A DNA stretch of 64,000 bases, from positions 391,902,001 to 391,966,000 of the forward strand of contig OZ024741.1 of NCBI GenBank assembly GCA_964016885.1. The letters are read 5' to 3'. Numbering within the stretch: position 1 is the first letter of the stretch; every line of letters begins with the position of its first letter. The stretch is from Eledone cirrhosa (taxonomy: Eukaryota). A model generated the notes under the pieces. It was not told the origin of the DNA. It saw only the letters and a program-made list of their open reading frames with translations, and ran no database searches. The position numbers and the translations under genes are program-made. Shown one piece after another: positions 6,905 through 46,231 of the stretch.

Positions 6905-9900
6905 ATGCTTCCATCTCCTAAAGTCACCCAACTTCAGAGTTGGTCCCATAAATGTAGGCACATTGAAAGGTCGACCAAATGAGGTTGTAAAGATGCTTGA
7001 ACGTAAGGAAGTTGATGTGTGGTGTGTTCAAGAGACTAGGTGGAGAGGTGGGTCTGCTAGATTCATTGTGGATAAAAAACGATGCTATAAACTTTTCTAG
7101 GTGGGAAATGACAACGGACTGGGTGGAGTAAGAATTATGTTAGCAGAAAAATGGGTAGATAATGTAATTGCCATAAATAGAGTGAACGGCAGAATAATTA
7201 AAATAAGACTAGTTCTAAATAGAACAACTGTGTCAATAATATCTGTTTATGCACTCCAATCTGGTCTACCAGACATTATAAAAGACAGGTTCTATGAGTT
7301 GCTAATGCTCACTTCCTCCCAAATAACCGACAGTGACTACTTAATTATTGCTGGCGACCTTAATGGTCATGTTGAACAACATTGTGATGGCTATGATGGT
7401 GTCCATGGAGGTTATGGGTTTGGTACTAGAAATGAGGAAGGCTTCAGGATCCAGGAATTCTGTGATGCCAATAGCCTAACTATCTGTAACACAAACTTGA
7501 AAAAAACAAGACAATCGTTTGATCACCTATAGATCAGTGGAGCACACCAGCCAGATAGATTTTATCTTTACTAGAAGACCAGACAGAATGTTTGTTGTAA
7601 ACACTAAGTCCCTCCCTGGTGAAGAATGCACCTCCCAACATAACCTAATAGTTAGTGACCTCATAGTCAGGGCTAGATGAACTTGACAACAGAGAACAAT
7701 CTTGAGAAGAATGTGGAAGTTGAAGGACCCCAAAGCCAATAACAAATTTAAAGCCATATTACTTGATGCTTTTGACAGTAAGGAAGAGCAATTAGAAACG
7801 TACAATATAGAGGAACAGTGGGAATTTCTGAAAGATAACCTGCTGAAGGCAACAGATAAAATCTGTGGCTGGAGCAGAGCTTTAGGGAGGAGGAGAGTAA
7901 CTTGATGGTGGAACAGTAGGGCAGAGGAGGCAATTAAGGCCAAAAGGCAAGCTTGGAAGGAATGGCGGAAGTAGAGAACACTATCAGGTTGCTAGGAGAG
8001 AACTTGGGCGACAAGTGTACTTTGAAAAAAGGTAAGCAGAGAATAGAATGTTCAATGCGAGGACCAAAAACGTGAGGTATTCAGGATTGCAAAGCAATGT
8101 GTCAAGTAAAATTGTGATATTGTTAGGGAGAAGTATGTCCATAAGGATGATGGTGTACTTGCCCTCACTGATACTAATAAGAAGGTAGCTTGGAAGTGCC
8201 ACTACGAGAGACTACTAAATGAGGAGAATGAATGGGATAAAGATAGTTGATCCCACAGAGGGACCAGCTGTGCAAGTTAGTGGTAGTATAGTAAGTAAGG
8301 CAATCAAAGATATGAAGACAGGCAAGGCAGCTGGGCCTTTGGAGATAGTTGCTGAGATGTTGAAAGCACCTGGAATGGTGGGACATATTATGGTCACTGG
8401 AATAGTAAACCAAGTAATACAGAATGGGGTCATACCAAAAGACTAGTGTAGCAGCATCATCATTAACTGCTATGAGAGCAAAGGAAACGCTCTAGATAGA
8501 GAAAACTATAGCGGCATTAAGTTAGTTGACCAGGTCAGGAATGTCACAGAAAGAGTTATCGCACAGCTGATTAGGGACCAAATTGATCTAGATGAAATGC
8601 AGTTTGGGCTTGTGCCAGGTAAAAGTACCACGGGTGCTCTCTTCCTTGTACAGCAAGTACAGAGGTACCTAGCTAAAAGTAAACCCATCTACTTAGCTTT
8701 TGTAGACTTGAAGAAAGCCTTTGACAGAGTCCCTCGCTCCATCATCTGGTGGGCTCTTAGAAAACTAGGAGTAGATGGGTGGCTTGTGAGAGCTATACAA
8801 GCCATGTATAAAGAAACAGTCAGTAAGGTTAGAATTAACAATGAATATAGTGAAGAATTTAGTGTAAAAGTTGGTGTTCATCAAGGCTCCATCCTTAGCC
8901 CCCTCCTATTTATTATTGCACTACAGGCTATAACCGACAAGTTTATGACTGGTTGCCCATGGGAACTTCTAAATGCAGATGATCTAACTCTCATAGTTGA
9001 ATCTATGGCAGAAGTAGAGAAGAAATTTCAAACTTGGGAGTCTGGCCTAGAATCAAAAGACCTTAAAGTTAACTCTTCTAAGACTAAAGTTCTAGTATGT
9101 AGAAAGGAAAATAGGGCACAGGTTCCCTCTGGGAAATGGCCTTGTTCAGTGTGTAGGAAAGGAGTAGGTAGAAATTCCATTCTATGTCCCAAATGCAAGC
9201 TATGGGTACATAAAAAATGTAGTGGGATCTCAGGCAAGCTATCAAAGATGTAGGTTTTATACATGGCTGATGCTTAGGTGCAGTAAGTAGCAAGTGCCAC
9301 TGGATACTAGCTCCTTCAAATACCCAGATGGTTCTATAGAAATAGTATATAGTAGACACTTTCCGTTAGCTGGGTGATAAAATCAGCAGTGGCTGGGAGG
9401 GCGTTTTGAAAGTACAGTAGCCAGAGTAAGAATGGAATGGAAAAGTTCAGCTAATACTGCTGTTGGCCACAAAAGGTTTCTCTCTAAAAATGAAAGGCAG
9501 ATTGTATGATGCTTGTATACGAACAGCAATGTTACATGGTAGTAAGACCTGGGCATTGTATGCAGAGGATCTGCGCAGATTGGAAAGAAACGAAGCATGC
9601 ATGCTCCGATGGATCTGTAATTCATGAACGGCAAAGCGTAAATGAACTAAGAGAGAAATTAGGTATAAGAGGGATCAGATGCTATATGCTAGAGAGGAGA
9701 TTGTGTTGGTATGATCATGTGATGCGTATGCCGGATGACAGCTGTATAAAAAGGTGCAGGGCAATCAAAACTGATGGAAGCTATGGAGTAGGTAGACCCA
9801 GAAAGACCTGGGACGAGGTGATAAAAGCTGACCTTGCACACTAGAACCTCTCTAAGACAATGACACATTATCGAGATCTTTGGCATTATGCAGTAATACA

Positions 9901-24392: not shown

Positions 24393-25500
24393 TCCAACTG
24401 AACTGGAAAACACGTACAACACTGCATCAATCATATGCAGTTCTCTGACTACAACCAAAACACGTACAACACTGCATCAATCATATGCAGTTCTCTGACT
24501 ACAACCAAAACACGTACAACACTGCATCAATCATATGCAGTTCTCTGACTACAACCAAAGAGACAGAATCAGGGTGTACAAAGGAACCACAGAGAAATAT
24601 AAGACCCTCATAGAGATGGACATGGAAGGGATTTGCCCATTGTACAGGAGCAAATCATGGAATAGCATAGATAGGACTAAACATAAGATAGGTACGACAA
24701 CCAGCGATACCAGAGTGTCATGTTCGTGGATGCAATCCCTGGAGGTTAATTAGTTAACCTGTGTAAAATGGCCTTAAGAAAGACCCATTTAAAGATTAAA
24801 GTGGTAGAAAAACCAGGAACTACTATAAAATCCCTGATCATCAAAACTTACCCCTTTAAGAAAACCCACTGTACTAATAAGAAATGTGAATAAATCCACA
24901 AATAAATTGTAAAACTAGAAATGTAGTCTATAGCATAAGAGGTACAGGGGGTACTTTCAGAAATATGACAACGACATACATAGTAGAGACAGCTCGGAGC
25001 ATAGGGGAGGGAATAGATGAACACTGGGGGGAACTAAACGGACAAAAAGATGGTTCAGTACTATATGACCACGCCAGACAAAGACATGATGGTAATATAG
25101 ATAACACAAACATTAAAATAATATCCAAACATAGAAATGACTCAACAGGTAGACAAGTCAGAGAATCAACTGAAATAGAACTAAGAAAACCGAAATTGAA
25201 CAGAAAAAATGAATGGAATAACAACAACAACCATACACAAACACACAATAGTGACCTAAGATAAATATAAATAAATATACACAGGTACAATAACAACAAC
25301 CACACATAAACACACACTAGAATACAAACACACAGAGACTCAGACACGATCACACACCAAACAGAAAATACACACACAAATGCATGCGCAAACCGATTAA
25401 AAATAAATTTAAAAAATAGAATAGACATTACAGTACAACGGGAGGAAACATAATAGTACTACTGATGATGTCACAGGGTGTGATGAAAGAACTTTTATAG
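24392..25500 (+). mobile_element. Penelope-like element (Naiad-like) 3' fragment, copy A
   Basis: GIY-YIG region (YIVETARSIGEGIDEH..RQVRESTEI), collinear with copy B; starts with a triplicated ~50-bp unit and ends in a hammerhead-like motif. Confidence 0.85.
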
Positions 25501-28887: not shown

Positions 28888-29868
28888 CTAGCATTAAAGC
28901 CCGGCATTGCTCGGGGTCATTAAGTTACCAAAGTTAGGTTGCACCACCCATTTTATGGCAGCACTTTTTTGTCTGCCAGGCACTGGGTGAATGAATTGCA
29001 GACCTGGAAGCATGAGCTGCGCCAGCAGTGACAATTGTAGTTTCGCCTATGGATATTATCTCTGTGCAAAAAAGTGTTGAAATTTATTGTTTCACAGTAC
29101 TTGCGCAACACGCGCGTAGACAATGCCAGCCGAACAACAGAGCTGCGATGGAGTTTTTCTGCATGGTTGTCTGTGTGTTTTCTAAATTTAAGACAGTAGG
29201 GAGGGTTGTGATATGAGGGAGAGTTAGCTGTTGTTTCTAGCAGGTTTAGTGACCTCATAGAGGATATGTGTTTTCTAAATTTAAGACAGTAGGGAGTGGT
29301 GTGATATGGAGAGAGTTAGCTGCTGTTTCTAGCAGGTTTAGTGACCTCATAGAAGATATGTTTTCTAAATTTAAGACAGTAGGGAGGGGTGTGATATGGG
29401 GGAGAGTTAGCTGCTGTTTCTAGCAGGTTTAGTAACCTCATAGAAGATATGTTTTCTAAATTTAAGACAGTAGGGAGGGGTGTGATATGGGGGAGAGTTA
29501 GCTGCTGTTTCTAGCAGGTTTAGTAACCTCATAGAGGATATGTGTTTTCTAAATTTAAGACAGTAGGGAGTGGTGTGAATAGACAGTATCACCATCAAGC
29601 TTGGAAAGAGAAAGTAGCAGAAAGTATGAAGTTGTATAGATTTTGAATAGTAGTAGAAAGAGTTCAGCAGTTTAAATGAGAGAGAAAAATCGTAAAATAT
29701 TGAGTTTTATCTATTTTTTGCGTAATTGTGGGTGAAATTGAAAAAATTATCTGCGTCAAGACGCAATCGAAACTATTTCGAATACTGAATTGTAAATTTC
29801 AATTGAAGAAATTCTATATCGTAGATTTCTATAACGAAGGAGCATGACCACACACTGAGCTTTATAGA
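28888..29868 (-). mobile_element. Non-autonomous Helitron with an internal ~91-bp tandem array
   Basis: Minus strand reads A|TC...CCCGAGCAATGCCGGG hairpin...CTAG|T; 4.4 tandem units at ~29177-29577. Confidence 0.75.
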
Positions 29869-33335: not shown

Positions 33336-33472
33336 ATTTTTATATAATTGTTTTTGTGTGTATATATATAATAGCCTCATAAACGGCTTGAGCTCTGCCG
33401 TGGGGTTATACTTTTCCCTATATGTGTATATATATACGTATATGTATGTATATGTGTGTGTATTTGTATGGT

Positions 33473-35823: not shown

Positions 35824-35824
<1 letters not shown>

Positions 35825-36441
35825 AGGGTGACTTTGGACATCCTGCAGGACTAAAAACAAAACCTGTCAAAGGGCAAAGGAGCTCTTAAGAGTCAATGGC
35901 CATCCAAAATCACCGGGAGAGATGACCCCTTTAGCCTTAGTCAAGGCAGAATTCTAGGAGAAGGAAAACTCTGATATAACACCTGCAACCCTGATGGTAT
36001 CCAATGATGTTGACTTGTTCTTCTTTTTGGTAAATAGCATCTTGGTTAAGAGAGTGGGACTGGCTTTGTGCAGTGCCTTTGCTCACTATAAAAGCTTCAC
36101 GGCACAGGCATTGCTTTATATCTGGAGATCTCTCTGCACTTGTCCTCACATGGGCCCAGCACTATGTGTCAATAATTGTCCTACCATGGGCCTAGCACTA
36201 TGTGTCAATGATTGTCACAGATGTAGTGTTTGTACCAGAGGTTTCAAGTCGCTGGCTGGACTAAAAAGTCACACTCGTTCAGCGCTTCGGTAGGGGTTAT
36301 CCTACATGGATGTAAAGTAGTGGCCGTACTCGAAAACGAGTTGGCAGCCACCATATATATATGTATATATATGTATGTATATGTGTGTGTATGTGTATGT
36401 ATGTATATGTATATGTGTGTGTATATGTATGTATATATATG

Positions 36442-36674: not shown

Positions 36675-37376
36675 GTATATATGTATATATATATATGTAT
36701 ATGTATATATATATATATGTATATATGTATATGTATGTATATATATGTATATATATATATGTGGAGGGTGACTTTGGACATCCTGCAGGACTAAAAACAA
36801 AACCTGTCAAAGGGCAAAGGAGCTCTTAAGAGTCAATGGCCATCCAAAATCACCGGGAGAGATGACCCCTTAGCCTTTGTCAAGGCAGAATTCTAGGAGA
36901 AGGAAAACTCTGATATAACACCTGCAACCCTGATGGTATCCAATGATGTTGACTTGTTCTTCTTTTTGGTAAATATCATCTTGGTTAAGAGAGTGGGACT
37001 GGCTTTGTGCAGTGCCTTTGCTCACTATAAAAGCTTCACGGCACAGGCATTGCTTTATATCTGGAGATCTCTCTGCACTTGTCGTCACATGGTACCATGG
37101 GCCCAGCACTATGTGTCAGTAATTGTCACAAGTGTAGTGTTTGTACCAGAGTTTTCAAGTCGCTGGCTGGACTAAAAAGTCACACTTGTTCAGCGCATCG
37201 GTAGGGGTTCTCCTACATGGATATAAAGTAGTGGCCGTACTCGAAAACGAGTTGGCAGCCACCATATGTATATATATGTATGTATGTATATATATATATG
37301 TATGTATGTATATATATATATGTATGTATGTATGTATATATATGTATATATATATGTATGTATATATATATGTATG

Positions 37377-37408
<32 letters not shown>

Positions 37409-38811
37409 TGTATGTATGTATGTATGTATGTATGTATGTATGTATGTATGTATGTATGTATGTATGTATGGTTCGTTTGTGCTTTGCCGTTCGCGTATGT
37501 TGCTGTTGCACATCCGCCGGGGCATGCGGGCTTCGTTCCTCTCTGGTCTGCGTGTGTCCTCTGCGCACGGTGTCCAGGTCTCGCTGCCATGCAGCGTTGC
37601 TGTTCGTGTGCGGGCGTCGTGCGGCCTGCCTTTCATTTTTAGGGAGAGCCCTTTGGCGGCTAGTGGTGGTATGAGCTCTCTCAGCTTTTTCCGTCCAGTT
37701 CTGACTCTGGCTACTGTACTTTCGGAGCACCCTCCCCCACTGCTGATTTTGTCGCCCGGGTGGCGGAAGCTGTCCACTATTTCTATGGAGCCCTCTGCGC
37801 AGTTGGGGGAGCTGGTGTTTTGTGGGCACTTGCTGCTACTTGTTTCACCAGAGCGCCGGCCACATGTGAAATCTACGTTCTTGGTTGGCTTGCCTGTGGT
37901 CCCGCTGCATCTTTTGTGCACCCATACTTTGCATTTGGGACGTGGAGTGGAGTTTCTGCCTGCGCCTTGCCTGCACACTGGGCATGGCCATTTCCCGGAG
38001 GGGACCGGCGCCTTGTTTTCTTTCCTGCAGACTAGAACTTTGGTCTTAGCCAGGTTAATTTTAAGGATATGTATGTATGTATATGTGTGTGTGTATGTAT
38101 ATATATATGTGTATGTATGTATATATATGTGTATGTGTATGTATATATATATATGTGTGTGTATGTATGTATATATGTGTATGTATATGTATGTATGTAT
38201 ATGTATGTATATATATGTGTGTATATGCATATGTATGTGTATATGTATATATATGTATATATGTGTGTATATGTATGTATATATGTGTGTATATGTATGT
38301 ATATATGTATGTGTGTATGTATATGTGTGTATGTATGTGTATGTGTATATATATGTATGTATATGTGTGTATCTATATATATATATATGTATGTATGTAT
38401 GTAGGGAGAGATGACCCCTTAGCCTTTGTCAAGGCAGAATTCTAGGAGAAGGAAAACTCTGATATAACACCTGCAACCCTGATGGTATCCAATGATGTTG
38501 ACTTGTTCTTCTTTTTGGTAAATATCATCTTGGTTAAGAGAGTGGGACTGGCTTTGTGCAGTGCCTTTGCTCACTATAAAAGCTTCACGGCACAGGCATT
38601 GCTTTATATCTGGAGATCTCTCTGCACTTGTCATCACATGGTACCAAGGGCCCAGCACTATGTGTCAATAATTGTCACAGGTGTAGTGTTTGTACCAGAA
38701 TTTTCAAGTCACTGGCTGGACTAAAATATCACCCGTTCAGCGCATCGGTAGGGGTTTTCCTACATGGATATAAAGTAGTGGCCGTACTCGAAAACGAGTT
38801 GGCAGCCACCA
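35824..38811 (+). repeat. Three direct copies of a ~0.4-0.5-kb unit (35824-36353, 36764-37264, 38404-38811) separated by TA/TG microsatellites; LINE 3'-end derived
   Basis: Near-identical sequence in all three. Encodes a remnant C-terminal zinc finger [17 protein letters not shown] typical of some RTE LINE ends. Confidence 0.85.
37471..38066 (-). mobile_element. RTE LINE fragment, A>G hypermutated on the + strand
   Basis: Collinear with 9061-9650 and 34565-35160 in reverse. Conserved residues are changed almost only by sense T>C (C>R, W>R, L>P, Y>H, I>T, F>L). Confidence 0.93.
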
Positions 38812-38851
38812 TGTATGTATATGTATGTGTGTATATATATGTGTGTGTATG

Positions 38852-38894
<43 letters not shown>

Positions 38895-39016
38895 TTAAGA
38901 GTTATACAAGGTTCATATGAATACATCTAAGAATGAGTTTTACACATACATATGTGTGTATGTATTTATATGTATGTGTCTGTGTATATGTATGTATATA
39001 TATATGTGTGTATATA

Positions 39017-39059
<43 letters not shown>

Positions 39060-40254
39060 CGAAGGAAATGTGGTAAGGAACCAGGTGGACCATAACGCAC
39101 CAAAGTACTCAATACTTAGGGTAGTAGAGTGGGTAATAGGAACGAGTAGGACCCCGACGAATTAGCCGCCGAAACGGCTTGAGCTCAGCCGTCGGGGTCC
39201 TACTCGTTCCTATATATATATATATATATATTTGTGCATGCGTATGTATGTATGTATATATGTGTGTATGTATGTGTGTGTATGTACGTGTGTATATATG
39301 TATGATTGTGTGTATGTATATATATATATATATATATATATGCATGTGTGTGTGTGTGTGTGCGTGTTTGTGAGTATGTATGGATTTGTTGATATATATG
39401 TATGTATGTGTATATGTACGAGATGTGTATGTATATATATATATATACATAATATATAAGATCAAAAGATGGTTAAATGAGTTCCATGTATTTTATTATG
39501 CGCATTTCAAAAATAAATATCATCATGTACTACAATAAAACTCACCTCCTACATATATATGTGTGTGTGTGTATGTATGTGTATATATATGTGTATGTAT
39601 ATATGTGTGTGTGTATGTAATTGTGTGTGTGTGTGCATGTGTGTTTATTTTTCCTTTCCTTCTTCCTTTTCCAGCCTCACTTTCATATAGATTATATTTT
39701 TGTTTTTAAATTCCAATGCCAATAAATACACCAGGATTTTTTCATTCTGATGATTGAAAGCAAAATTTGTTTGCTTTTAAGAAACCACTGGTAAATGAAA
39801 TAATTGCCTTATGTTGTTTATTACATAACTATATATATATATATATTATATTTATTTCTGCATTCACAGATTGATTTTTTTAGTTTCAGAAGATCCCGTT
39901 AAGGGTGAAAGCAGCGATTCTTTGCTTAAACTTTAATCTGTTATTTTAATAAATAAATAAATATATATATATACATCCAAAAGTGTGTTTGACCAACATA
40001 CCATTTTTATTTTATTCATGTGATATTTTAAATCGCAGTCATAAAGTCCCCCTTTATACTTTATTATATAAGGGTGGTGTATTGGCAGTATCGGTAGAGC
40101 GTCGGACATGCTTTGAGTTACCGCTCTTTACGTTCTCAGTTCAAACCTTGCCGAGGTTAGCTTTGCTTTACGAAGTTGATAAAATAAAGAACCAATAACG
40201 CACTGGGATCGATTTAATCGACCCACAAATTGTTGGCCTTGTGTCTATATCAGA

Positions 40255-44025: not shown

Positions 44026-44497
44026 TATTATAACACATACTTTAGTCTTGAAAAGGATTAATCCAATTCTTCAAGTAAAGGTATATATCTTACAATTTAA
44101 CAGTAAAGAAGATATGTTATATGTCCACTGTTGAATATTTACTTTTTAAGTATCTTCTTTATTTTATACTGTTTCTCTCATATTTCAGAATATCAGATGA
44201 CATTGGAAAAAATAAATTGGAATACATCAGATACATCTTTTAAAAACTAAAGGAAGATGTTATACAGAACACATACAACTCTATATAAATCTTTGATAGA
44301 ATTACTGGGAAATATTTGTGAGCTGACTTTAATAGCAACATTTTCCTGCTTCCTTATGAATTTGTATTCTAATTTAAGTTGAAATAGAAAGGAGTTTGCA
44401 GTTGATGGAAATATAGCAGAAGAAATATTCATTGGGAAGAAAATTAAATAGCAAAAGAAGAAAATCATCTGTATATTGTGGTGAGAGACAAAAAAGT

Positions 44498-46231
44498 ATG
44501 GAAAATAAATTATGTGAAGACACAGTTAAATGTGAAACTAAGTCTAAAAGTATTGATTTTCCTGGTAATGTAAAGAAAGAGAAAGGAAAAACATTACACC
44601 AATGTAATATCTGTAAAAAGTCATTCTCAAGAAAACACAGCCTCACCACTCACAAACATATTCATACAGGAGAGAGACCACATCACTGTGATATTTGTAA
44701 AAAGTCATTCTGTCAAAGTAGCGACTTAATCATTCACAAACGTTATCATACAGGTGAGAAACCATATCATTGTGATTTCTGTGATAAATCATTCTACACA
44801 AGTAGTAAATTGAGTGTTCATAAACGTACTCATACAGGTGAGAAACCATATCACTGTGATATCTGTGGTAAATCGTTCTATGAAAAAAATAAATTAACTA
44901 AACACAAACGTATTCATACAGGAGAGAAACCACATGTCTGTAACATCTGTGGTAAATCATTTTTTGAAGGTTGTGAATTAACTAGGCACATACGTATTCA
45001 TACAGGCGAGAAAACGCATTTTTGTAATATCTGTGGTAAATCATTCTCTGGAAGTGGTGCTGTAACTGCTCATCAACGTATTCATACAGGAGAAAGACCA
45101 TATCAGTGTGATGTCTGTGGTATATCATTCTCTCACAGTAGTGCCGTAACAGCTCACAAACGCCGTATTCATACTGGAGAGAAACCATATCACTGTGATG
45201 TCTGTGGAAAATCATTTTCTGTTGGTGGTAAATTAACTACTCACAAACGTATTCATACAGGAGAGAAACCATATCACTGTGATATCTGTGGCAAATCATT
45301 TTATGCAAGTTCTCATTTAACTAAACACAAACGTATTCATACAGGTGAGAAACCACATATTTGTAATATCTGTGGTAAAGCTTTCAATGAAAGTAGTCAT
45401 TTAACTACTCACAAACGTACTCATACAGGAGAGAAATCATATCACTGTAATAGCTGTGGTAAATCTTTCTATTCAAGTTCTCACTTAACTATTCACAAGC
45501 GTATTCATACAGGAGAGAAACCATATCATTGTGATACCTGTGGTAAATCATTCACTGAAAGTAGTCACTTAACTACACATAAACGCATTCATACTGGAGA
45601 GAAACCATATCAGTGTGATATCTGTAGTAAATCATTTGCTGAAAGGGGTAAATTAACTCGACACATTCGTATTCATACAGGTGAATCACCATATCTCTGC
45701 AACATCTGTGGTAAATCATTCTCTGGAATTGGTGCAGTTACGGCTCACAAACGTATTCATACAGGAGAAAGACCATTTCACTGTGATATCTGTGGTAAAT
45801 CATTCACTGTAAATAGTGCTGTAACTGTTCACAAACGTATTCATACAGGAGAGAAACCATATTGCTGTGATGTCTGTGGGAAATCATTCTCTGTAAGTAG
45901 TAAAGTAACTACTCACAAACGTATTCATACAGGAGAGAAACCGTACCATTGTAGTGTCTGTGATAAATCATTCTCTGAAAGTGGTCAGTTAACGAAACAC
46001 AAACGTGTTCATACAGGAGAGAAACCATATCACTGTAACACTTGTGATAAATCATTTTCTGAAAGTAGTCGGTTAATTATTCACAAGCGTATTCATACAG
46101 GTGAGAAACCATATCACTGTGATATATGTGGTAAATCATTCTCTGAAAGTTGTCGTTTAACTAGACACAAGCGATGTGTTCATATAGGTGGCACTCAGAC
46201 AAAGACACACTCTCAATCACACCTTCCTTGA
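44498..46231 (+). CDS. Tandem C2H2 zinc-finger protein, 19 fingers, single coding exon
   Basis: Intact ORF from the first ATG (MENKLCE..) with 19 C2H2 units joined by TGE(K/R)P-type linkers. No KRAB/BTB domain visible. Acceptor TTTCAG ending near 44188 suggests spliced 5' UTR exons. Confidence 0.95.
   Translation: MENKLCEDTVKCETKSKSIDFPGNVKKEKGKTLHQCNICKKSFSRKHSLTTHKHIHTGERPHHCDICKKSFCQSSDLIIHKRYHTGEKPYHCDFCDKSFYTSSKLSVHKRTHTGEKPYHCDICGKSFYEKNKLTKHKRIHTGEKPHVCNICGKSFFEGCELTRHIRIHTGEKTHFCNICGKSFSGSGAVTAHQRIHTGERPYQCDVCGISFSHSSAVTAHKRRIHTGEKPYHCDVCGKSFSVGGKLTTHKRIHTGEKPYHCDICGKSFYASSHLTKHKRIHTGEKPHICNICGKAFNESSHLTTHKRTHTGEKSYHCNSCGKSFYSSSHLTIHKRIHTGEKPYHCDTCGKSFTESSHLTTHKRIHTGEKPYQCDICSKSFAERGKLTRHIRIHTGESPYLCNICGKSFSGIGAVTAHKRIHTGERPFHCDICGKSFTVNSAVTVHKRIHTGEKPYCCDVCGKSFSVSSKVTTHKRIHTGEKPYHCSVCDKSFSESGQLTKHKRVHTGEKPYHCNTCDKSFSESSRLIIHKRIHTGEKPYHCDICGKSFSESCRLTRHKRCVHIGGTQTKTHSQSHLP

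What the first reader, a model, noticed from the sequence alone, without database searches (positions are those of the whole stretch)
37471..38066. ADAR-type A>G hyper-edited retroelement fragment present in the DNA sequence
Seen: compared with sibling RTE copies in this window, the fragment carries dense one-directional A>G changes on the + strand (T>C in element sense). Example: the reverse complement of 37921-37980 versus 9147-9206 shows 7 T>C, no C>T and 4 other differences in 60 nt. The protein shows FCYLGD>FRHPGD, TGWKKF>TGRKKL, GRLYDACIRTAM>[12 protein letters not shown] and CMLRW>RMPRR, so this copy is the derived state. By eye, TA sites are mostly converted while A after G tends to survive (GGAG, GAGAG, TGAG). 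Established: clustered A>G with a disfavoured 5' G is the signature of ADAR hyper-editing of dsRNA, and coleoid cephalopods edit very extensively. Genomic hypermutation of retroelements is normally the APOBEC G>A/C>T type. Inference: an edited RNA was reverse-transcribed and written into the chromosome. The edited strand is antisense to the LINE, and the piece has no 3' tail or visible TSD and sits inside a microsatellite. That is unlike ordinary LINE retrotransposition and suggests RNA/cDNA-templated break repair or trans-mobilisation, i.e. a route for heritable fixation of RNA edits. The main alternative is RNA-derived sequence incorporated during assembly, gap-filling or polishing.
Basis: partly seen in the sequence, partly recalled or inferred. 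Interest (0 to 1): 0.93.

Follow-up and report, generated by a model that had tools for sequence, protein, structure and literature searches.

The report
RNA edits written into the genome
A piece of a jumping gene carries the chemical fingerprint of RNA editing, and sister cases in the same genome, one with its unedited original on another chromosome, indicate that edited RNA was copied back into chromosomal DNA, so RNA edits can become heritable sequence.

Summary
Confirmed and extended. Window 37471-38066 is a unique antisense LINE piece differing from its nearest copies by 69 A>G of 137 A, no G>A and 7 other changes, with ADAR's 5' preference (T 32/47, G 4/19). Three more edited LINE inserts and one edited SINE-like copy were found. 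For one (C1:284.01 Mb) the unedited source lies on C3. There, 54/82 A in a hairpin stem are changed against 1/36 outside it. In its LINE part 27/57 A are changed where an inverted partner 3.3 kb away (not copied) pairs, against 1/114 elsewhere, and TA repeats became TG. So editing struck a folded transcript before copying. Another insert has a 17-nt target duplication and a 5' inversion, hallmarks of LINE-type insertion; this favours trans-mobilisation over break repair. A public contig (run kind unrecorded) and genomic RAD reads from another sample carry the edited form, but no listed record spans a junction, part of the fragment is uncovered, and its own source was not found. The scan earlier noted ADAR-type A>G in a provirus of another genome. 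New variant of known processes.

The parts
37471..38066 (+). Hyper-edited piece of a young LINE (end of the RT open frame), antisense on +; 69 A>G on +
   Evidence: sibling frame has RVT_1 and a PHD finger
38067..38403 (+). TA/TG microsatellite, TG share 0.44, the highest of the four TA-based arrays beside it (0.26, 0.38, 0.30); inferred to be edited (UA)n of the same RNA
   Evidence: by analogy with the C3/C1 pair; not shown for this array
38404..38812 (+). 5'-truncated copy C (positions 199-608) of a high-copy 608-nt SINE-like unit, unedited; possible carrier of the insertion
37266..37470 (+). Microsatellite at the 5' junction, ending in about 27 perfect 4-nt repeats; target or slippage product
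36760..37265 (+). Unit copy B (104-608), unedited; part of the tandem array that received the insert
35824..36354 (+). Unit copy A (108-608), unedited
38812..39058 (+). Microsatellite region 3' of unit C; probable target repeat

Best explanation
The piece is a chromosomal cDNA copy of an ADAR-hyper-edited nuclear RNA. (1) A long transcript runs antisense through a LINE copy and folds onto a nearby inverted copy: shown at a sister locus, inferred here. (2) ADAR turns about half of the paired A into inosine, including A of self-pairing (UA)n repeats: signature shown, enzyme inferred. (3) A fragment of this RNA is reverse-transcribed at a nicked (TA)n site by a non-LTR retrotransposon protein, often joined 5' of a SINE-like RNA by template switching; inosine is copied as G. 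Target duplication, inversion and a chimeric junction are seen at one sister locus; the route is inferred here. (4) Because it is in the assembled sequence and seems present in other samples, the event was in the germ line or early embryo (inferred).
For: Spectrum and 5' context match the ADAR motif as given in passages of PMC5625713. Unique in the assembly among the scored hits. Source/daughter pair C3:318.63 Mb to C1:284.01 Mb: hairpin stem 54/82 A changed, outside the stem and loop 1/36. LINE part 27/57 where an inverted partner 3.3 kb downstream in the source pairs, 1/114 elsewhere, p=1.5e-14, and that partner is not in the daughter. Microsatellites went from TA 14/TG 2 to TA 7/TG 7, and from 10% to 38% TG. 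C1:5.73 Mb: a 17-nt direct repeat flanks an inverted and a forward LINE piece (both A>G on the LINE-antisense strand), further pieces and a full-length unit; its LINE/unit junction is unique in the genome. C3:106.93 Mb: 56 A>G and 2 other changes in 689 nt, same context, partly different sites. Run X1 has a 185-nt contig, depth 16.8, 4 differences from the window where unedited copies differ by 20 or more (0 of 100,000 simulated independent edited copies came as close). Genomic RAD run X22, another sample and study, has depth 2 over 37473-37526 at 94% likeness or more, ending at an SphI site, where unedited copies differ by 7 or more of 54. A co-oriented unit lies downstream in 2 of 3 edited loci found without the unit, against 0 of 30 random LINE ends (p=0.006).
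Against: The window's own source was not found (each DNA search scored only 40 candidates, and 30 of 76 pattern hits were fetched), and 6 private non-A>G changes are unexplained. X1 and X2 show zero depth over 37517-37604, X2 lists no piece over 69 nt, no listed record spans a junction, and the X1 contig reads A at edited site 37758 (the tool warns that filtered records leave holes). The kind of X1, X2 and X4 is not on record. The X22 signal may be one molecule and could come from another edited copy (3.9% in simulation). No target duplication can be seen inside the microsatellites. Unit C is truncated and 337 nt away, so it may have inserted separately. C3:106.93 Mb has no unit nearby.
Confidence: 0.72

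Rival explanations
1. Same edited RNA, but patched into a double-strand break in the fragile (TA)n array (class 2 templated insertion; LINE RT acting without its nick, or a repair polymerase), with the SINE-like units inserting independently.
For: No tail or visible target duplication at the window; 0-2 nt of microhomology. C3:106.93 Mb has no unit and joins the repeat directly. Class 2 is defined in the abstract of PMC5110952.
Against: Target duplication, 5' inversion and a chimeric junction at C1:5.73 Mb; co-orientation with units; this LINE family itself often joins TA repeats at its 5' ends.
Confidence: 0.18
2. Assembly artefact: RNA- or cDNA-derived sequence entered the assembly by gap filling, polishing or contamination.
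For: Holes in X1 and X2 and no junction-spanning record listed. An N gap lies about 0.4 kb beyond the unit at the C1:284.01 Mb locus.
Against: No N in the window. Edited form seen in a genomic RAD run of another sample and in X1. RNA polishing would alter the source in place; it would not create a copy on another chromosome with new junctions, nor a target duplication with an inversion. The known Sanger-trace error is G-to-A (passages of PMC2873906).
Confidence: 0.05
3. Deamination of DNA rather than RNA: ADAR acting on the antisense cDNA strand of an RNA:DNA hybrid during LINE insertion, or on an R-loop in place.
For: All four edited LINE pieces are changed on the LINE-antisense strand, which is the first cDNA strand. 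ADARs can edit DNA in model hybrids (passage of PMC12925331).
Against: Both arms of a palindrome are changed on one strand, and only in the stem. LINE patches follow an inverted partner that exists only at the source locus. The source stays unedited.
Confidence: 0.04
4. A GC-rich subfamily, or an error-prone polymerase with an A>G bias.
For: Edits lean to codon position 3 before correction. Polymerase eta favours A>G after A or T (recalled).
Against: Single copy; the other edited copy shares 24 sites and differs at 39 of 104; half of all A changed with almost nothing else; confinement to duplexes.
Confidence: 0.01

Closest known systems
ADAR A-to-G hypermutation of avian retroviruses (Rous-associated virus, avian leukosis virus; Hajjar and Linial 1995, Felder 1994, as cited in a passage of PMC12925331)
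   Same: About half of A changed to G in an inverted-repeat region of an RNA that was then reverse-transcribed.
   Different: There the virus copies its own genome in cultured or somatic cells. Here host nuclear RNA, antisense to a LINE, is copied in trans into an animal's chromosomes at several loci.
APOBEC DNA editing of LTR retroelements (PMC4866542, passages)
   Same: Clustered, one-way, strand-biased changes fixed in genomic retroelement copies.
   Different: G>A on the sense strand, made on cDNA, in vertebrate LTR elements; reported absent from 19 invertebrates; the screen covered LTR elements and its text has no mention of ADAR.
Chimeric retrotranscripts by template switching or twin priming (U6/L1, U6/RTE, U6/SINE; PMC4476161, passages)
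   Same: A second RNA joined 5' of a non-LTR element or SINE inside one target duplication, sometimes inverted.
   Different: The passenger there is an snRNA; here it is hyper-edited repeat RNA from another locus.
Templated sequence insertion polymorphisms (PMC5110952, abstract and section list)
   Same: Sequence from a distant locus inserted by LINE protein (class 1) or as a break patch (class 2).
   Different: No editing is mentioned in the abstract; class 1 needs poly(A), whereas here TA repeats appear to take that place (inferred).
RNA hyper-editing of inverted repeats and palindromes across Metazoa (PMC5625713, passages)
   Same: Same substrate and 5' G depletion; octopus is one of two species with an exceptionally high rate.
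   Different: Described in RNA reads only.

Membership tests
ADAR hyper-editing product | One-way A>G on one strand | tested here: met
   69 A>G, 0 G>A, 1 T>C
ADAR hyper-editing product | G depleted 5' of edited A | tested here: met
   4/19 against 65/118, p=0.007; 1/20 at C3:106.93 Mb; 4/15 in the hairpin
ADAR hyper-editing product | Edits confined to double-stranded RNA (sister locus C1:284.01 Mb) | tested here: met
   54/82 against 1/36; 27/57 against 1/114
ADAR hyper-editing product | Edits confined to double-stranded RNA (the window's fragment) | tested here: inconclusive
   Source locus not found
ADAR hyper-editing product | Inosine in the RNA and dependence on an ADAR | not testable with these tools
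   Needs biochemistry or knock-down
APOBEC-edited retroelement | G>A on the element's sense strand | tested here: not met
   Sense-strand change is T>C; G>A (C>T on +) occurs once
Ordinary LINE insertion from its own RNA | Sense RNA template with intact 3' end and tail | tested here: not met
   No 3' end; edits are on the antisense strand
Chimeric retrotranscript (template switch) | Passenger and carrier inside one target duplication (C1:5.73 Mb) | tested here: met
   17-nt direct repeat, 6 nt of it TA repeat; unique junction
Chimeric retrotranscript (template switch) | Same, at the window | tested here: inconclusive
   Both ends lie in microsatellite
Class 2 templated insertion (break patch) | No target duplication, deletion or microhomology at the empty site | not tested
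   No empty allele in hand
   RVT_1 E=2e-15; trinucleotide tail
   No tree built; label recalled; nearest Atlas clusters are unnamed RVT_1+PHD proteins of Cnidaria and Mollusca

The most novel reading that the evidence does not exclude
In this animal, ADAR editing is a recurring, heritable mutational process. TA-targeting retroelement machinery repeatedly copies edited nuclear RNA into the germ line, at hundreds of loci, and part of the genome's strand-biased TA/TG microsatellites are edited (UA)n. The genome then holds a datable record of germ-line ADAR activity and RNA folding, and the same route could fix recoding edits in retrocopies.
Probability: 0.45. Interest if true: 0.92.

Novelty: new variant of a known kind. 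Interest (0 to 1): 0.8.

Why it matters
A-to-I editing is treated as an RNA-only change, and genomic hypermutation of retroelements as APOBEC work absent from invertebrates. A source/daughter pair in which the edits trace the folded source transcript shows edited RNA becoming chromosomal DNA. That makes three things testable from assemblies alone: whether ADAR is active in the germ line, what its in-vivo substrates and motif are, and whether editing feeds sequence evolution (repeat divergence, microsatellite composition). It also warns that A>G differences between repeat copies can confound editing calls from RNA reads.

Tried and rejected
Source of the window's fragment: not found. One search gave 76 copies matching one private base; 30 were fetched, those that aligned shared few or none of the other private bases and none was a close match. 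Searches gave no outstanding hit (loci share at most 1 of 6 private bases; loci were judged by score only). The pattern missed even the self site and is void, and a further pattern search across private bases was not run, so this stays open.

L064 (C4:205.35 Mb) has the same right breakpoint and an inverted copy 2.3 kb away. It was rejected as source: it has its own private changes, none of the six, its microsatellite fits worse than all 9 control arrays, and such breakpoints are common. The microsatellite alignment test is weak in itself: the true source scored no better than controls.

A candidate source for C1:5.73 Mb on C25 lacks its private base and flanks; not established. My impression that repeats upstream of units are TG-richer than those downstream failed (40% against 38%). 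Rfam gave only microsatellite noise for the region and nothing for the unit; a DNA search with the unit returned nothing.

The pattern was designed from two known loci and returned only those, so its 2 versus 0 in 12,841 unedited ends is circular. It shows, (1 hit), that edited ends are rare. Short same-type runs shared by several copies were read as subfamily differences and not counted.

Full report
Observation. The stretch 37471-38066 is an internal piece of a young LINE, antisense on the + strand, between TA/TG microsatellites. A genome search scored 40 of 4931 candidates: the self hit and 39 ungapped copies at 87-88%. Against the majority of 29 of these it differs by 69 A>G of 137 A, no G>A and 7 other changes; 74 copies give the same. 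Edited shares by 5' neighbour are T 32/47, A 15/25, C 18/46, G 4/19 (p=0.0013), and the 3' neighbour is flat. Depletion of 5' G is the ADAR motif in passages of PMC5625713. The lean to codon position 3 disappears after allowing for context (p=0.17). A sibling frame has RVT_1 and a PHD finger. 'RTE' and 'octopus' are recalled labels that I did not test; nearest Atlas clusters are from Mollusca and Cnidaria.

Is it in genomic DNA? I laid 4 of 24 listed runs. X1 (kind not on record; family depth in the hundreds of thousands suggests whole-genome DNA) has a 185-nt contig at depth 16.8 on 37735-37919 with 4 differences. Unedited copies differ there by 20 or more, the other edited copy by 16, and none of 100,000 simulated independent edited copies came within 4. 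X22, a genomic RAD run of another sample and study, has depth 2 over 37473-37526, ending at an SphI site, where unedited copies differ by 7 or more of 54. This may be one molecule, and an independent edited copy would fit 3.9% of the time. Against: X1 and X2 have no depth over 37517-37604, X2 lists no long piece, no listed record spans a junction, and the X1 contig has A at 37758. The tool warns that a filter drops records. The reads therefore support, but do not prove, a real polymorphic allele.

It is not alone. A pattern with edited bases found a second locus, C1:284.01 Mb. The window's own 31-mer with 3 mismatches found a third, C3:106.93 Mb: 689 nt, 56 A>G and 2 other changes against the youngest copies, same context, sharing 24 edited sites with the window and differing at 39 of 104. 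The window's insert sits in a tandem array of a 608-nt SINE-like unit with a fixed 3' end and variable 5' truncation (21,697 exact hits of its end). A survey of 158 sequences (691 kb; overlapping loci dropped) found derived same-type runs against many partners only at the window, C1:284.01 Mb, C1:5.73 Mb and inside one unit copy, L074. Two of 69 unit-anchored loci were edited, and none of the 89 LINE-anchored loci L002-L060 and L099-L128. Edited copies are rare among LINE ends; no copy among 210 alignments showed a comparable excess on the sense strand.

The decisive pair. The C1:284.01 Mb insert is a composite: about 300 nt of another element, microsatellite, a truncated LINE, microsatellite, a 328-nt palindromic element, microsatellite, then a full-length unit. 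A junction pattern gave 3 hits, one being the same composite, unedited, on C3:318.63 Mb, sharing private bases and breakpoints. The palindrome folds into a perfect 115-pair stem: 54 of 82 stem A are G in the daughter, on both arms of one strand, against 1 of 34 outside and 0 of 2 in the loop. In the LINE part 27 of 28 edits fall where an inverted piece 3.3 kb downstream in the source can pair (27/57 against 1/114, p=1.5e-14). That piece was not copied, and a more distant inverted copy of 86-89% likeness left no edits. The unpaired upstream element has 1 change in 92 A. The repeats went from TA 14/TG 2 to TA 7/TG 7, and from 10% to 38% TG. So a long single-stranded transcript of the C3 locus folded and was edited, and part of it was copied to C1.

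How it inserts. At C1:5.73 Mb a 17-nt direct repeat (6 nt of it TA repeat) flanks about 1.85 kb. Inside are an inverted LINE piece and its forward continuation, both A>G on the LINE-antisense strand; microsatellite; a LINE end; an edited duplicate of that end with about 50 nt of its repeat; and a full-length unit joined without spacer. That junction is unique. Target duplication, 5' inversion and a passenger RNA 5' of a SINE match template switching and twin priming as described in passages of PMC4476161. Two of the three edited loci found without using the unit have a co-oriented unit just downstream, against 0 of 30 random LINE ends (small numbers). C3:106.93 Mb has none, so the unit is not required. 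For the window I infer an insert of edited LINE plus the TG-rich repeat 38067-38403 (TG share 0.44), possibly with unit C. Its source was not found, and six private non-A>G bases may be later mutations or belong to a source that is missing or was not scored.

Rivals. Break repair with the same edited RNA cannot be excluded here (0.18). An assembly artefact (0.05) does not explain a copy on another chromosome, a target duplication with inversion, or the read evidence. ADAR acting on cDNA or R-loops (0.04) fits the antisense bias but not the hairpin-confined edits. A subfamily or an error-prone polymerase (0.01) fits neither uniqueness nor density.

What is known. I saw passages of PMC4866542, PMC5625713, PMC12925331, PMC4476161, PMC2873906, PMC12548423 and PMC13282606, and abstracts with section lists of PMC5110952 and PMC6007223; no supplements were read, and those of PMC4866542 may bear on non-G>A clusters. 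ADAR hypermutation is known for avian retroviruses; one endogenous mouse provirus has an A>G excess without ADAR context; an octopus repeat annotation does not mention editing. Seven searches aimed at edited RNA copied into genomes listed no paper whose title or abstract start reports ADAR-edited non-LTR or nuclear RNA copies in a genome; the library lacks most subscription papers. This scan earlier noted ADAR-like A>G in one LTR of a provirus in another genome, which I did not check.

Verdict. The feature is real in the assembly, very probably real in genomic DNA, and explained by two known processes in a combination I did not find described: hyper-editing of folded nuclear RNA, then retro-insertion at TA repeats. 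New variant of a known kind; interest 0.8. The bolder reading, that this is a genome-wide source of heritable change that also shapes TA/TG microsatellites, rests on one source/daughter pair and on a strand bias of repeats beside units (TG over CA in 64 of 71 upstream and 70 of 77 downstream) that a TG-containing tail would also explain.

Noticed in passing
window 44417-46231 (+): 604-aa open frame with 18 C2H2 zinc fingers, 6.4 kb downstream of the insert on the same strand as the edits; the array may lie in this gene's transcription unit.
   Followed up: partly
window 35824-36354, 36760-37265, 38404-38812; genome-wide: 608-nt SINE-like unit, at least 21,697 copies, fixed 3' end, 42 of 94 sampled copies near full length, tandem in TA repeats; no Rfam match; autonomous partner unknown; related older families seen.
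   Followed up: partly
L074 1126-1438: A unit copy with 9 A>G in patches on its sense strand.
   Followed up: partly
flanks of 94 unit copies: Microsatellites are TG-rich and CA-poor on the unit's strand on both sides.
   Followed up: partly
L064 / L180 (C4:205.35 Mb): Unedited LINE copy with the same right breakpoint as the window's fragment and an inverted copy 2.3 kb away; probably chance.
   Followed up: yes
run X4 on window 37514-37595: Low-depth contigs with 2-3 differences where X1 and X2 have no depth; look like independently edited transcripts if X4 is RNA (kind not on record).
   Followed up: no
window 39456-39527: Unedited partial copy of the palindromic element that is edited at C1:284.01 Mb.
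   Followed up: no
window about 39130-39210 and 33372-33420: Another TA-flanked repeat with strong hairpins, also in L090 and L244.
   Followed up: no
L066-L067 (C1:284.01-284.02 Mb): About 8 kb of TA repeat with roughly 15% TG on one strand, interrupted by AT-rich palindromic repeats; an N gap lies 0.4 kb past the unit.
   Followed up: no
L176 1-78: A unit end lies about 6.2 kb upstream of the copied part of the C3 source, on the transcribed strand.
   Followed up: no
L004 1256-2407 (-): The LINE's frame carries a PHD-like finger just after the RT domain.
   Followed up: no
window 29175-29578 and 24407-24559: Tandem repeats of 91 nt (4.4 copies, 94%) and 50 nt (3.1 copies, 100%).
   Followed up: no
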